DNA of 56,920 nucleotides from a virus (Duplodnaviria; Caudoviricetes), in the IMG/VR virus record IMGVR_UViG_3300045125_000053, positions 1 through 56,920 of that record; one strand, written 5' to 3'. The notes under the pieces are model-generated. The model had not been told where the DNA came from. It did no database searches and worked only from the letters and a program-made list of their open reading frames with translations. Within the stretch, counting starts at the first letter, position 1, and each line of letters opens with the position of its first letter. This document shows positions 263-49,358 of this stretch, in pieces. Made by a program: the position numbers and the translations under genes.

Positions 263-304
263 ATTACTTTTTGTTGTTGACAAAAATACAACTTAAGTTA
301 TAAT
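263..304 (+). promoter_or_regulatory. PL-like sigma70 promoter with overlapping repressor operators (OL)
   Basis: TTGACA (277-282), 16 bp, TATAAT (299-304); ACAACTTAAGTTAT (288-301) and ATTACTTTTTGTTGT (263-277) match the operator motif between cro and cI. Confidence 0.85.
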
Positions 305-2550: not shown

Positions 2551-3148
2551 CCCTGAATGGTATGCGGCTAGAGTCGGTAAATTAACAGCGTCACGCATGA
2601 ATGACGCTGTTGATGTACTCAAAAAAGGCGGCGAATCTCAGGCTCGTATTAATTACCGGCTTGAATTAGCTACCGAGAGACTAACCGGGGTACTTATCGA
2701 AAAATACACTAACAGCGCAATGCAGTGGGGCATTGATAATGAACCTAAAGCTAGAGAAGAATTCGAGCTTTTTAACGGGTGAATTTGTAACTGAGGTTGG
2801 TTTTTATGACCACCCAGTAATAAACGGTACTGGCGCTAGTCCTGATGGATTAGTAGGTGTTAACGGTCTTATTGAAATCAAATGCCCAACGTCACAGACT
2901 CATCTGCAATGGGTTTTAGATAATAAAGTTCCAGAAAAGCATGTTAATCAAATGCTTTGGCAAATGGCTTGTACTGGGCGTAAGTATTGCCATTTTGTTT
3001 CATTTGATCCACGAATGCCGCCTGAGCTTCAACTATTTCACAAAGTATTTGAGCCGAAAGACTCGGAAATACCAGATTTAGAACAAAGAGCAATCGACTT
3101 TTTATCCAACCGTTGATGAATTGATTGCAAACATTTATAGCAACATAA
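2537..3148 (+). CDS. exo: YqaJ/lambda-exonuclease family protein, with indels
   Basis: QRSPEWYAARVGKLTAS, AMQWGIDNEP, GASPDGLV, IEIKCP, QMLWQMACTGR; lies next to bet. Confidence 0.92.
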
Positions 3149-3160
3149 AAGGTTAAAACA

Positions 3161-3568
3161 ATGAGCAATGTATTTAGTTGTATAGGTAATGTCGGGCGTG
3201 ATGCTGGAAGTTAAAGCATTACTAAGTGGGCAGTCAGTTTTAAATGTCACTATCGGCACATCGACAGGTTTTGGAGATAAACAAAAACGATTTGGGTGCG
3301 CGTAGCAGTTTGGGGAAAAAGAGCAGAAGGCCAGCTTGTTAATTACTTGAAAAAAGGTCAGCAGGTTTTTGTCTCTGGTGAATTATCGCAGCAGGAATAT
3401 CAAGGCAGCGATGGCAGCACCAAAACGGCTTTAGAGCTTAATGCTTATGTTTTAGATTTAGTGGGCAAGCGTAGTGATAATCCACTGGCAGCGCAATCGA
3501 ATAACGCAGCATCAGCAGAGCAGAATGACAATTTTGCTGATTTTGGCGGCGATGAAATCCCTTTTTGA
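3161..3568 (+). CDS. ssb: Single-stranded DNA-binding protein, with indels
   Basis: IGNVGRDA, VAVWGKRAE, YLKKGQQVFVSGEL, acidic tail ending DEIPF. Confidence 0.92.
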
Positions 3569-3620
3569 TGTGATAGGATAAGACAAGACTCGACGACACA
3601 GAATTTCACAAGACACGACA
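3566..3620 (+). repeat. Pentamer-periodic array (11 units, N-GAY-N) upstream of the RAMP-like gene
   Basis: TGATG TGATA GGATA AGACA AGACT CGACG ACACA GAATT TCACA AGACA CGACA; central A invariant. Confidence 0.8.
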
Positions 3621-3645
3621 ACCTTAATAAAACAGGAAATCCACA

Positions 3646-4203
3646 ATGAAAACAGCAATAGTAAAAATAATAGGATTAAGCCCTTTAGCTCAAGGGAAAT
3701 TCGTACAAGCAGAAAAACTCCCCAAAGAATTGCACAAAGATTATGAAGCGAGAACATGGCGCGAAAAGATGCACTACGACAAAGACAATATTGTATTTAT
3801 TCCATGTTTTGCTCTTAAAAACTGCCTTGCTGAAGCAGCAAAATTTCTATCAATTCAAGTGCCAGGTAAAGGTAAAGCTACTTATACAAAGCATTTTGAA
3901 GCTGGAACTATGGTAGTGCAAAACATGAGTCTTGGAATTAATAAAGATGAGGTTAATCCACAAATAATGTTTGTACCATCTGACGGAGTTAGAGGCAGTA
4001 ATAAACGTGTGGAGAAATACTTTCCGGTAATGCCGGAATGGGGTGGTATTGCTGAATATATGATTTTAGATGAAACCATTACGGAAGATGTTTTCATCAA
4101 CCACTTGAAACAGGCTGGTCAATTTATCGGTTTGGGTTCGCTTAGACCCAGAAATAATGGTTTTTTTGGTAGGTTTGATGTGAAGTTGGTTAGTTTTAAA
4201 TGA
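3646..4203 (+). CDS. Stand-alone Cas7/RAMP-like putative RNA-binding protein
   Basis: N-terminal strand VKIIGLSPL, FIPCFALKNCLAEAA (compare RAMP xIPGSSLKGxLR) and C-terminal Gly loop GQFIGLGSLRPRNNGFFGRFDV; intact 185 aa with RBS AGGA. Confidence 0.75.
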   Translation: MKTAIVKIIGLSPLAQGKFVQAEKLPKELHKDYEARTWREKMHYDKDNIVFIPCFALKNCLAEAAKFLSIQVPGKGKATYTKHFEAGTMVVQNMSLGINKDEVNPQIMFVPSDGVRGSNKRVEKYFPVMPEWGGIAEYMILDETITEDVFINHLKQAGQFIGLGSLRPRNNGFFGRFDVKLVSFK

Positions 4204-4305
4204 CATGACCGGACTTGACTTAATGTGACTAGACAGGACATGACTAGAAATGACCGGACAAGATGGGATCAGACCACAAGCGACATTACTAGACTAAACA
4301 AGACA
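4201..4305 (+). repeat. Pentamer-periodic array (21 units, GAY-NN), candidate guide-like ncRNA
   Basis: TGACA TGACC GGACT TGACT TAATG TGACT AGACA GGACA TGACT AGAAA TGACC GGACA AGATG GGATC AGACC ACAAG CGACA TTACT AGACT AAACA AGACA, then a T-rich tract. Confidence 0.92.
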
Positions 4306-4336
4306 AGTTTTTATTTAATTGAATTGGATTAAAACA

Positions 4337-4819
4337 ATGAATAAGCCAATAGGTGCAACAAGTTTAGATGCAAAAGTATTATCAGAAAAATTGCTTGAAT
4401 TATCTGCTGGTGATTCGATTAGTTATTCAGATATTAATGAATTAATTGGTAGAGATATCCAAAAAAATAGACATATTTTAGCGACAGCCAGAACAATTGC
4501 TAGGCGTGAAAAAGGTTATTTATTTGACTGCATTAGTAATGTTGGCGTTAAAAGGTTATCTGATTCTGAAATAGTTGAAATAGAAAGTGTTAGGCCATTT
4601 TCAAGAATCAAAAGCGCAGTTAAAAAAGGTTTGCAAAATGTCCAATGCGCTAAAGATATTAGCAATACTGACCGGATTAAACAGAATGCAACTATTTCTA
4701 TGTTAGGCACTATCGCTTTATTCACGAAATCGAATGCTGGTGAGATAGTTAGACATAAAACAGAATTCGCTCCAATAGCAACGTCGAAAGTATTGGAATT
4801 GTTTAAACAATGTACTTAA
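4337..4819 (+). CDS. Hypothetical protein with a winged-helix-like N-terminus
   Basis: GDSISYSDINELIGRDIQKNRHILATARTIARREKGYLFDCISNVGVKRL fits a helix-helix-helix plus beta-wing pattern; ATG at 4337. Confidence 0.6.
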   Translation: MNKPIGATSLDAKVLSEKLLELSAGDSISYSDINELIGRDIQKNRHILATARTIARREKGYLFDCISNVGVKRLSDSEIVEIESVRPFSRIKSAVKKGLQNVQCAKDISNTDRIKQNATISMLGTIALFTKSNAGEIVRHKTEFAPIATSKVLELFKQCT

Positions 4820-25100: not shown

Positions 25101-25378
25101 TACATCATTCCTTGTGCTGCCATTGGTGGCTTTTTAGCCGGTGCTTTCTCGCCTAAGCCAGCATTAAACATTTGATTCAGATAATCTTCTGAAGTATCGC
25201 TTAATAATTCACGCACTTTGTTTAAGGCTTCGTCCAAAGACTTGAAGGCTCTTTGTTCTTCAACACCGCCTTCCTCCATATTTTCTTGCGGATTCTCTTG
25301 GTCGTTTTGTTCAACGATAAAAGTACCATCGCCATTTGCGGTAATTGTAACGCTGACTTGATTAGTAGTTTCGTCCAT
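25100..25378 (-). CDS. Hypothetical acidic protein
   Basis: AAGGA RBS; MDETTNQVSVTITANGDGTFIVE. Confidence 0.65.
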   Translation of the reverse strand: MDETTNQVSVTITANGDGTFIVEQNDQENPQENMEEGGVEEQRAFKSLDEALNKVRELLSDTSEDYLNQMFNAGLGEKAPAKKPPMAAQGMM

Positions 25379-25821
25379 TATTTTTCCTTAGTTAGCACAA
25401 CATGTTGCCGGTGCTTTCTCGCCTAAGCCAGCATTAAACATTTGATTCAGATAATCTTCTGAAGTATCGCTTAATAATTCACGCACTTTGTTTAAGGCTT
25501 CGTCCAAAGACTTGAAGGCTCTTTGTTCTTCAACACCGCCTTCCTCCATATTTTCTTGCGGATTCTCTTGGTCGTTTTGTTCAACGATAAAAGTACCATC
25601 GCCATTAATAATTCACGCACTTTGTTTAAGGCTTCGTCCAAAGACTTGAAGGCTTTTTGTTCTTCAACACCGCCTTCCTCCATATTTTCTTGCGGATTCT
25701 CTTGGTCGTTTTGTTCAACGATAAAAGTACCATCGCCATTTGCGGTAATTGTAACGCTGACTTGATTAGTAGTTTCGTCCATTATTTTTTCCTTAGTTAG
25801 CACAACATGTTGCCGGTGCTT
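25137..25821. repeat. Nested tandem duplication (about 2.5 copies) of the 25100-25378 gene region
   Basis: Near-identical blocks ~25137-25406, ~25407-25605 and ~25606-25821; GCCGGTGCTT at the boundaries. Confidence 0.9.
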
Positions 25822-45528: not shown

Positions 45529-45636
45529 CGTATTCAGTTGCAGTATTGCAACATGGGATTGGCGTTCCAAAAATACAACGGCATAATGCCGCGAAAAGCG
45601 GTTTTTTTATGTCTATCATTTAGCACTTCATTTTAT

Positions 45637-45707
45637 GTCGGGCTAAGTGGGCAGTCGCAAGGCTGGCCGGTCCGTTGTTCCGGTACGCCAACCCACTTAG
45701 TCCCGGC
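45637..45707 (+). ncRNA. C4-type antisense RNA (copy 1)
   Basis: Multi-stem RNA closed by GGGCTAAGTGGG/CCCACTTAGTCCC; unpaired CCGTTGT and ACGCCAA are complementary to ACAACGG and TTGGCGT found upstream (45559-45581) and downstream (45715-45752). Confidence 0.88.
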
Positions 45708-45760
45708 TCCATGATTGGCGTCATGTTGTTGGGTTCAAAATTTTTACAACGGTATCAATT

Positions 45761-49125: not shown

Positions 49126-49178
49126 GGATTGCTCCAGTACGGATGTTTAAAACCACCGACCAAAACGACCAAGATTTG

Positions 49179-49251
49179 GGCGGCGAACGTATGCGGGTTG
49201 GTCGACCGGGTACTGGACCGGCAAGCTTCACAGCTTCCACATACGCCCACC
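49179..49251 (-). ncRNA. C4-type antisense RNA (copy 2)
   Basis: Minus strand GGTGGGCGTATGTGG..CCGGTCCAGTACCCGG-TCGACCAA-CCCGCATACGTTCGCC; targets GTACTGG and TTGGTCG upstream (49305-49326) and downstream (49134-49172). Confidence 0.85.
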
Positions 49252-49358
49252 ATAAATGAAGGGCATAAAAAAAGTCATGAACCTTGCGGCGCATAACTAT
49301 TGCGCCAGTACCATACGAGCGACCAAGCCCGCCTGCCCAATGTGGGGCAGTAAGCAAA

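What the first reader, a model, noticed from the sequence alone, without database searches (positions are those of the whole stretch)
3566..3625. Second, shorter array upstream; both arrays start on the preceding gene's TGA and end in GACAA
Eleven in-phase units (NN = GT AG AA AA TC GA AG TT AA AC AA) fill the gap between ssb and the RAMP-like gene. This array starts at the ssb TGA (3566-3568) and the other at the RAMP-like gene's TGA (4201-4203). Both end GACAA followed by AT-rich sequence. Inference: either two distinct guides cut from the early transcript, or an autoregulatory binding site, since this array ends about 12 nt before the gene's RBS.
Basis: partly seen in the sequence, partly recalled or inferred. 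Interest (0 to 1): 0.75.

Follow-up and report, generated by a model that had tools for sequence, protein, structure and literature searches.

The report
Phage VIPR guide arrays, GAY-type
The two five-base-periodic arrays around a small Cas7-like phage gene are most likely the guide-RNA arrays of a VIPR system, an RNA-guided gene-silencing system first described in 2026, here built on a GAY instead of the published GGY scaffold triplet.

Summary
Window 3567-3621 carries 11 in-phase 5-nt units (8 GAY, 11 NAY; 0 of 200 shuffles reach 8 GAY). A second array of 21 units lies at 4202-4306. Both start on a TGA stop and end in GACAA.

The gene between them (3646-4203) folds as a Cas7-type RAMP. It is homologous (hhalign 97.4%) to the Vipr protein of SUSP1-like Felixounaviruses.

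In relatives, 71 of 80 IMG/VR loci carry period-5 arrays beside the gene, against 0 at lag 4 and 10 at lag 6. Of 70 distinct loci, 28 keep both flanking arrays.

Three 2026 preprints describe this system as VIPR. Vipr protomers coat a vrRNA made of GGY/NN repeats. The NN dinucleotides then pair with dsDNA under a one-base-skip rule and silence rival phages.

What differs here is the scaffold, which is GAY. SUSP1 Vipr is reported not to tolerate GGY perturbations. The G-loop residues aligned to its G-contacting D177-W178 are S-L here.

Across the family the triplet varies (GGC, GAC, CGC, CTC, GTT and others). No expression data and no convincing target were found.

The parts
3567..3621 (+). Array A: 11 units of GAY/NAY + NN. 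Candidate vrRNA 1, the finding itself. The first unit overlaps the ssb TGA, and the last two units are GACAC GACAA.
   Evidence: The position matches the upstream arrays of relatives.
3622..3645 (+). Short AT-rich tail and RBS (AGGA 3634-3637) before the vipr start codon.
   Evidence: No fold beyond shuffles (z 0.99 for 3567-3645).
3646..4203 (+). vipr: a 185-aa stand-alone Cas7-like RAMP (P0001) with the G-loop GLGSLRPRNNGFFGRF.
   Evidence: phrog_4652, 3.9e-17; hhalign to SUSP1-like Vipr 97.4%, E 1.3e-11.
4202..4306 (+). Array B: 21 units, mostly GAC + NN. Candidate vrRNA 2, or two or more staggered vrRNAs. It starts inside the vipr TGA and ends AGACA AGACA A.
4307..4336 (+). AT-rich tail after array B with a weak AU hairpin and four in-phase NNATT units. 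It ends at the start codon of the next gene.
4337..4819 (+). Candidate vap (vipr-accessory) gene: 160 aa, an N-terminal winged-helix-like domain plus long helices.
   Evidence: A homolog sits directly downstream in 41 of 64 other loci that have an ORF there. Model pLDDT 92.6. PDB matches are weak only: ScpB and GntR-type, best E 0.026. hhalign to the gene after LESphi2 vipr gives 61.9%, E 7.6e-5.
277..304 (+). Consensus sigma-70-like promoter (12 of 12). It is the only strong candidate start of the + strand early operon that contains the locus. Assignment is uncertain.

Best explanation
Window 3567-4819 is a VIPR (Viral Interference Programmable Repeat) locus of a phage. It consists of vipr (3646-4203), a vap-like gene (4337-4819) and two vrRNA arrays (3567-3621 and 4202-4306).

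By analogy with the published SUSP1 and P. fulva systems, the arrays are transcribed. One Vipr protomer binds each 5-nt unit and buries the conserved triplet, here GAY. This leaves the two variable bases of each unit exposed. The string of NN dinucleotides then pairs with double-stranded DNA in which every third base is skipped, which silences transcription of a competing phage, satellite or prophage. Array A would therefore be a second, independent 11-unit guide.

Shown here:
- the periodic arrays and their statistics;
- the RAMP fold and the homology to SUSP1-type Vipr;
- the family-wide linkage of the gene to the arrays;
- the variable NN against a fixed triplet.

Inferred, not shown:
- transcription and processing in this phage;
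- binding of GAY by this Vipr;
- the one-base-skip rule for this clade;
- the identity of the targets.
For: (1) Arrays. See the observation check.

(2) Protein. The fold is Cas7/Csm3-like, with 155 PDB matches at E <= 0.001, the top ones being type VII Cas7 and Csm3. tblastn finds relatives in 119 phage records, including Pseudomonas phage LESphi2 (27% identity over 98% of the query) and Felixounaviruses. The profile of 24 relatives against the Felixounavirus tootiki protein gives hhalign 97.4%, E 1.3e-11 over 169 columns. The tootiki locus is 94.7% identical in DNA to phiSUSP1, the phage in which VIPR was characterised.

(3) Linkage.
- LESphi2 and tootiki carry GGC/NN and GGT/NN arrays beside the gene.
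- 58 of 82 loci have at least 7 of 10 in-phase identical triplets.
- 71 of 80 IMG/VR loci have a lag-5 region. The counts at other lags are 9 (lag 3), 0 (lag 4), 10 (lag 6), 2 (lag 7) and 0 (lag 8).
- The arrays lie on the gene's strand. The downstream array typically starts -2 to +15 nt from the stop. The upstream array's last triplet ends 8-64 nt before the start codon.
- 21 of 24 further loci from genome contigs of many phyla also show arrays.

(4) The arrays are not more folded than shuffles (z 0.77 and -1.21). This fits a protein-coated single strand.

(5) Neither guide matches the phage's own genome by the skip-1 rule beyond the shuffled-guide level (16 of 22 and 24 of 42). The authors report the same for their systems.

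(6) Literature. Preprint 10.64898/2026.04.26.720920 (Results and Methods sections 18 and 20 read). Preprint 10.64898/2026.04.26.720927 (Results part 1 read).
Against: - The scaffold is GAY, not GGY. The discovery preprint says that perturbing the GGY motifs abolished SUSP1 silencing, and its fig. S12 legend lists GGY>GAY among the substitutions tested. I saw the text and legend only, not the figure.
- Array A is degenerate: 3 GAT units and 3 units without G1.
- Array B has 21 units, outside the 9-16 reported per vrRNA.
- The two arrays share no structured 3' tail, whereas SUSP1 vrRNAs end in a pseudoknot.
- No promoter-like site lies next to either array.
- No RNA data exist.
- The residues aligned to SUSP1 H17 and R138 are absent or changed in this clade.
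- No natural target was found.
- 33 of 70 relatives lack an upstream array.
Confidence: 0.82

Rival explanations
1. Array A is a decaying relic. The locus is a VIPR system, but only array B still gives a working guide, and the upstream array is too degenerate to be loaded along its length.
For: Only 5 of 11 units are GAC, and units 7-9 (CAC, AAT, CAC) lack G1. Lag-5 identity is below 0.6. 33 of 70 distinct relatives have no upstream array within 200 nt. The neighbouring ssb and exonuclease genes look frame-broken, so this genome or assembly carries lesions.
Against: All 11 units keep A at position 2 and a pyrimidine at position 3. The array keeps the family's terminal XXXAA ending. [quoted passage not shown] Eleven units is within the published 9-16 range.
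Confidence: 0.15
2. Translational or autoregulatory operator, working like TRAP on its triplet repeats. The main role of the upstream array would be to let Vipr coat the 5' leader of its own mRNA and set its own translation. Array B would do the same for the next gene.
For: The arrays fill the intergenic gaps from the stop codon to about 12-30 nt before the next RBS, here and in relatives. There is no separate promoter.
Against: The NN positions are hypervariable while the triplets are fixed, which is what a guide needs and an operator does not. In the homologous systems, reprogramming the NN positions redirects DNA silencing (preprint Results). Many relatives have several arrays in a row with no gene to regulate, for example L072 and L025.
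Confidence: 0.08
3. A DNA-level element, or a chance microsatellite: iterons, protein-binding sites on dsDNA, or slippage products with no RNA role.
For: None specific. The locus lies next to recombination genes (exonuclease, ssb).
Against: The arrays sit in the gene's orientation in all the loci I looked at. Slippage of a 5-nt unit would copy the NN bases too, yet they differ from unit to unit. The motif is tied to a RAMP RNA-binding fold. The shuffle statistics exclude chance.
Confidence: 0.02

Closest known systems
VIPR systems, type II (Escherichia phage SUSP1; Pseudomonas fulva prophage). bioRxiv 10.64898/2026.04.26.720920, 10.64898/2026.04.26.720927, 10.64898/2026.10.15.759431
   Same: A minimal two-gene phage locus with a single-RRM RAMP protein that has a G-loop and a thumb, and that is homologous by profile comparison. 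Arrays of 5-nt units, a fixed triplet ending in a pyrimidine plus a variable NN, lie upstream and downstream of vipr. A small accessory gene predicted to bind DNA follows. There is no CRISPR array.
   Different: - The triplet is GAY, not GGY.
- The G-loop triad aligned to SUSP1 D177-W178-R179 is S165-L166-R167.
- The helical insertion around SUSP1 H17-K33 is missing, and there is an insertion after helix 1.
- The arrays butt directly against stop codons and ribosome-binding sites inside a long operon.
- No pseudoknot-like conserved tail is seen.
- Array B has 21 units.
- The VIPR type (I-VII) could not be assigned, because the type table and logos are in supplements I could not open.
Class 1 CRISPR backbone proteins: type VII Cas7, type III Csm3/Cmr4
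   Same: The fold is shared (Foldseek E 7e-8 to 5e-6, TM 0.55-0.64), as is the glycine-rich loop. One protomer per repeat of the RNA with periodic base flipping is known from the cited structures, not tested here.
   Different: The period is 5 nt rather than 6. There are no repeat-spacer array, no Cas5, Cas6, Cas10 or Cas11 genes beside it, and no contiguous spacer. The locus is phage-borne and stand-alone.
TRAP (trp RNA-binding attenuation protein) and its GAG/UAG triplet repeats with 2-3 nt spacers. Recalled from general knowledge; no call.
   Same: Many identical subunits each read one triplet of a single-stranded RNA at a spacing of about 5 nt. Eleven triplets, as in array A.
   Different: The fold is unrelated (TRAP is a beta-sandwich ring), with a closed 11-mer rather than an open filament. 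In TRAP the spacers carry no information. TRAP regulates attenuation and translation, not DNA targeting.

Membership tests
VIPR | Vipr protein: a stand-alone RAMP with one RRM core, a glycine-rich loop and a thumb | tested here: met
   Model pLDDT 88.5. Top PDB matches are Cas7 of type VII and Csm3. The G-loop GLGSLRPRNNGFFGRF is conserved in 24 relatives.
VIPR | Sequence homology to an experimentally characterised Vipr (SUSP1 clade) | tested here: met
   hhalign of A1 against tootiki_14 gives 97.4%, E 1.3e-11 over 169 columns. The tootiki locus is 94.7% identical to phiSUSP1 over 86% of its length. tblastn alone is weak (E 1e-4).
VIPR | Tandem 5-nt units beside vipr, with a conserved triplet and hypervariable NN | tested here: met
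   for the window; for relatives
VIPR | The conserved triplet is GGY (YNNGG repeats) | tested here: not met
   The window has GAY in 8 of 11 units of array A and mostly GAC in array B. The preprint allows 'a related consensus' and names NNNGG, YNNNG and NNNNG. GAY is none of these as written. Its fig. S17 could not be seen.
VIPR | 9-16 repeats per vrRNA | tested here: inconclusive
   Array A has 11 units (met). Array B has 21 units. Relatives have up to 34. The preprint also mentions staggered or overlapping vrRNA arrays.
VIPR | Invariable, structured 3' tail after the repeat tract | tested here: inconclusive
   Both arrays end in GACAA plus AT-rich sequence. A terminal XXXAA(XXXAA) ending recurs in relatives. 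No shared structure was found, and the z-scores are unremarkable.
VIPR | Accessory vap gene next to vipr, predicted to act on DNA | tested here: met
   A conserved downstream gene is present in 41 of 64 other loci. Its model shows a winged-helix-like N-terminal domain. 5 of 25 members weakly match Pfam DNA_binding_1. Its link to the LESphi2 neighbour is weak (61.9%). Identity with vap1-6 was not testable.
VIPR | Viral or proviral context, with no CRISPR array or cas operon | tested here: met
   The tool treats the record as a virus record. PHROG hits to an exonuclease and an SSB lie next door. The tandem-repeat and Rfam scans show no CRISPR-type repeats.
VIPR | vrRNAs are expressed and co-purify with Vipr | not testable with these tools
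   No RNA run is listed for this sequence.
VIPR | NN dinucleotides match natural targets by the one-base-skip rule, with no self-targeting | tested here: inconclusive
   There is no self-target above the shuffled-guide level. Three sub-guides gave 0 exact matches in IMG/VR. One gene on two metagenome contigs matches 20 of 20, but the match is at chance level.
CRISPR-Cas class 1 | Repeat-spacer array with contiguous spacers, and a multi-gene cas operon | tested here: not met
   No such array is found in the window. Only two small genes lie in the locus.
TRAP-type RNA-binding attenuation | TRAP fold and an 11-mer ring | tested here: not met
   The fold search returns RAMP/Cas7 chains, not TRAP. 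There is no Pfam match.

The most novel reading that the evidence does not exclude
The scaffold triplet of VIPR is itself an evolving specificity code.

Within one Vipr clade, close relatives use GGC, GAC, CGC, CTC, GTT, GTC, CAC, AGC or ATT. A at position 2 goes with loss of R165 and E106. R165 is the residue aligned with SUSP1's G1-contacting G-loop residue D177. All 32 GGC-type proteins of this clade have S15/E106/R165/F166, while 13 of 16 GAC-type proteins lack R165.

Switching the scaffold would make a phage's Vipr blind to rival 'solo' vrRNAs. The October 2026 preprint shows that satellites use such vrRNAs to hijack VIPR (abstract read). On this reading the GAY system in the window is a naturally orthogonal VIPR, and the family offers a set of mutually insulated guide scaffolds.
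Probability: 0.35. Interest if true: 0.65.

Novelty: new variant of a known kind. Interest (0 to 1): 0.42.

Why it matters
The finding turns out to be an instance of VIPR, a guide-RNA system reported only in 2026 and proposed as an ancestor of CRISPR RAMPs.

The added value lies in the natural variation.
- The characterised SUSP1 protein is reported not to tolerate changes to GGY. The published vrRNA callers search for GGY or YNNGG. GAY, CTC, GTT and similar arrays may therefore be under-counted.
- If scaffold and G-loop co-vary as the counts suggest, the family supplies orthogonal Vipr and vrRNA pairs. These would be useful for multiplexed programmable repression.
- It would also point to an arms race over guide loading between phages and satellites.

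Tried and rejected
- My first hypotheses were a TRAP-like regulator, a lambda N/nut-like antiterminator suggested by the gene's position after cI in LESphi2, a tRNA or codon sponge, and a primase-site array. I dropped them once the VIPR preprints were found.
- Rfam at gathering thresholds finds nothing at the arrays.
- Pfam finds nothing for P0001 or gene 2.
- Literature searches that found nothing relevant: 'pentanucleotide repeats'+phage+RNA-binding; Cas7+phage+5-nt+periodicity+antitermination; '5-nt repeats'+phage. The search 'Cas7-like'+phage-encoded+repeats gave only CRISPR papers. Passages I read in the Felix O1 genome paper do not mention these repeats.
- A first search for related loci with the single protein found no relative. 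The alignment query worked.
- Target search.
  - Skip-1 scans of the window itself were at the shuffled-guide level.
  - Three exact sub-guide scans of IMG/VR gave 0 hits.
  - The metagenome scan gave one GntR-family gene on two contigs (20 of 20). The skipped base falls on codon position 1, unit 11 mismatches, and about one chance hit is expected, so I do not count it.
  - 106 guides scanned against 335,672 bases of loci gave 0, 2 and 0 hits at 18 or more of 20 for skips of 0, 1 and 2. This is chance level.
- The phylogenetically controlled test of triplet against residue 165, 106 or 15 had only 2 well-supported independent pairs, so no significance is possible.
- There is no simple one-residue code. 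L034, L015 and L087 use GAC with the GGC-type residues, and the CGC, GTT and GTC types also keep S/E/R/F.
- Sequencing runs: no RNA holder is listed, and only two DNA runs hold a small share.
- Supplements of the preprints (type table, fig. They may already show GAY-type or other scaffolds and may assign this clade to a type.

Full report
**Observation**

The stretch 3567-3621 reads, in register, GATGT GATAG GATAA GACAA GACTC GACGA CACAG AATTT CACAA GACAC GACAA.

- The first unit overlaps the TGA (3566-3568) that ends the ssb-like ORF 3296-3568.
- The second array, 4202-4306 (21 units, mostly GAC+NN), starts inside the TGA (4201-4203) of ORF 3646-4203.
- Both arrays end in GACAA followed by AT-rich sequence. 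The RBS-like AGGA lies 12 nt after array A.
- In the whole 56.9-kb window, on both strands, only these two places have 6 or more of 11 in-phase GAC or GAY triplets.
- With array B masked, array A scores 8 GAY and 11 NAY of 11. With both arrays masked the window maximum is 4.
- 200 dinucleotide-preserving shuffles never exceed 6 GAY or 10 NAY.
- Array A is the weaker array. It fails a lag-5 self-identity threshold of 0.6 and passes at 0.55.

**The gene between the arrays**

P0001 (185 aa) has no Pfam family and matches phrog_4652, of unknown function, at 3.9e-17.

There are 1668 proteins at E <= 1e-3 in the 90% clusters and 1036 representative clusters at 50% identity.

With an alignment of 24 relatives AlphaFold gives pLDDT 88.5 and pTM 0.81. 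Foldseek against the PDB returns 155 matches at E <= 0.001. The top ones are Cas7 of type VII CRISPR complexes (E 7e-8) and Csm3 of type III-A (TM up to 0.64).

**Relatives keep the arrays**

tblastn finds distant homologs in 119 phage records. In Pseudomonas phage LESphi2 the gene is preceded by GGC/NN arrays. In Felixounavirus tootiki it is flanked by GGT/NN arrays.

Eighty IMG/VR loci were fetched with the alignment.
- 58 of all 82 loci have at least 7 of 10 in-phase identical triplets.
- 71 of the 80 IMG/VR loci have a region of lag-5 self-identity of 0.6 or more. The counts at other lags are 9 (lag 3), 0 (lag 4), 10 (lag 6), 2 (lag 7) and 0 (lag 8).
- Of 70 distinct loci with 200 nt on both sides, 28 have arrays on both sides of the gene, 25 only downstream, 9 only upstream, and 8 none within 200 nt.
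- Downstream arrays usually begin -2 to +15 nt from the stop codon. The last triplet of an upstream array ends 8-64 nt before the start codon.
- Arrays commonly finish with one or two units whose NN is AA.
- 24 further loci from genome contigs span many bacterial phyla and one Nanoarchaeia MAG. Arrays show in 21 of them.

The next gene (window 4337-4819) is a conserved partner.
- A homolog sits directly downstream in 41 of 64 other loci that have an ORF there.
- Its model (pLDDT 92.6) is a winged-helix-like domain followed by long helices.
- PDB matches are weak only: ScpB and GntR-type, best E 0.026.
- 5 of 25 members touch Pfam DNA_binding_1 weakly.

**What it is**

A literature search led to three 2026 bioRxiv preprints on VIPR systems.

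From the discovery preprint (10.64898/2026.04.26.720920) I read the Results, Methods sections 18 and 20, and passages that include supplementary legends. It reports:
- Vipr is a phage-encoded, single-RRM RAMP.
- VIPR loci typically hold vipr plus one vap gene, flanked by long intergenic regions.
- In SUSP1, one vrRNA is encoded upstream and three downstream.
- vrRNAs consist of 9-16 YNNGG repeats (conserved GGY, hypervariable NN) plus a 3' tail.
- The NN bases recognise double-stranded DNA by a one-base-skip rule and repress transcription.
- Natural targets are satellites and rival prophages.
- There are seven types, with 'GGY/NN motifs, or a related consensus'.

From the cryo-EM preprint (10.64898/2026.04.26.720927) I read Results part 1. 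It shows one protomer per repeat. G1 is read by H17 and D177, G2 by R138 and W178, and Y3 sits in a pocket that excludes purines.

The third preprint (10.64898/2026.10.15.759431) I know from its abstract and Methods section 17. It shows satellites redirecting VIPR with solo vrRNAs.

The window's protein is tied to this family in two ways. Profile comparison with the tootiki protein gives 97.4%, E 1.3e-11 over the full length. The tootiki locus is 94.7% identical to phiSUSP1.

The best reading is therefore that array A and array B are two vrRNA-coding arrays of a VIPR locus.

**How this locus differs**

- The scaffold triplet is GAY. The preprint states that perturbing GGY abolished SUSP1 silencing, and the fig. 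S12 legend lists GGY>GAY among the substitutions tested. I did not see the figure.
- The alternative repeats named in its Methods are NNNGG, YNNNG and NNNNG. GAY is none of these as written.
- The G-loop triad aligned to SUSP1 D177-W178-R179 is S165-L166-R167 in P0001 and R-F-R in GGC-type relatives of the same clade.
- The residues aligned to H17 and R138 are missing or replaced by F in this clade. Triplet reading must therefore differ in detail.
- Across 83 unique proteins the dominant triplet is GGC (33), GAC (16), CGC (5), CTC (5), GTT (2), GTC (2), and CAC, AGC, GCA and ATT (1 each). 16 are too weak to call.
- 32 of the 33 GGC-type proteins have S15/E106/R165/F166. The exception is LESphi2. 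13 of the 16 GAC-type proteins lack R165.
- The association is striking in raw counts but not established. L034, L015 and L087 are exceptions, and the CGC, GTT and GTC types keep the GGC-type residues.
- The triplet label changes at least 25 times on the tree of 82 proteins. The independent-pairs test had only two well-supported contrasts and cannot reach significance.

**Open points for this phage**

- No promoter-like site lies next to either array. The only consensus promoter is at 277-304, so the RNAs would have to be processed from, or protected within, the early transcript.
- The arrays are not more structured than shuffles, and no common tail structure is seen. A weak AU hairpin follows array B only.
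- No RNA run holds the sequence.
- Neither guide matches the phage's own genome by the skip-1 rule above the shuffled-guide level. This agrees with the authors' finding of no self-targeting.
- Exact scans of three sub-guides found nothing in IMG/VR.
- The one metagenome hit is a GntR-family gene on two contigs, 20 of 20. Its skipped base falls on codon position 1, unit 11 mismatches, and about one chance match is expected.
- A cross-scan of 106 family guides against all fetched loci gave 0, 2 and 0 hits for skips of 0, 1 and 2, which is chance level.
- The host is unknown.

**Rivals**

- Array A may be a decaying relic. It has three GAT units and three units lacking G1, and 33 of 70 relatives have no upstream array. 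Against this, it keeps A2 and Y3 in all 11 units and keeps the terminal ending, and the authors describe internal degeneracy as common.
- A TRAP-like autoregulatory role is not excluded as a by-product of Vipr coating the leader. It does not explain hypervariable NN or gene-less runs of arrays (L072, L025).
- A DNA-level or chance origin is excluded by strandedness, by the unit-to-unit NN variation and by the shuffle statistics.

**Verdict**

The local novelty is a GAY scaffold with matching G-loop changes, inside a clade whose scaffold triplet is unexpectedly plastic. Whether the authors' supplements already list this could not be checked.

Noticed in passing
window 2733-3568: The recombination genes upstream look frame-broken. 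An ssb N-terminal frame starts at ATG 3163 and stops after about 17 codons. The SSB Pfam match lies in a separate ORF, 3296-3568. ORF 2733-3116 matches only the C-terminal part of the YqaJ exonuclease model. These may be assembly indels or real pseudogenes.
   Followed up: partly
window 45631-45713 (+) and 49176-49257 (-): Two matches to Rfam C4 antisense RNA (RF01695; 56.1 and 54.9 bits, gathering score 45).
   Followed up: no
window 25201-25740: A tandem repeat of a 134-nt unit, 4 copies, 67% matches, inside the minus-strand gene block.
   Followed up: no
window 4307-4336: After array B, four in-phase NNATT units (TTATT TAATT GAATT GGATT) and a weak AU hairpin precede the start codon of the vap-like gene. 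This may be a decayed array end or a tail element.
   Followed up: partly
window 277-304: A perfect TTGACA-16-TATAAT promoter-like site at the head of the + strand early gene block.
   Followed up: no
L036:849-908 versus L074:1124: A GGC-type guide of one phage matches its sister phage upstream of vipr at 18 of 20 informative bases under the one-base-skip rule. About one such hit is expected by chance in that scan.
   Followed up: partly
L103 (Nanoarchaeia MAG) 2291-2677; L100 685-1521: Family members with ATT-type and CAC-type 5-nt arrays. The most divergent scaffold goes with the most divergent G-loop (GLLAMRPR).
   Followed up: partly
L072 2064-2711; L025 633-1367; L051 1308-1475: Some relatives carry six or seven arrays in a row with no gene between them, or a single array of 34 perfect GAC units.
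   Followed up: no
L002 (phage tootiki) about 1855-1880, 1985-2010, 3262-3290, 2125-2155: The GGT arrays are bracketed by GGTCTTT(T)AA-like boxes that resemble the rrn boxA antitermination element as I recall it. The resemblance is recalled and not tested.
   Followed up: no
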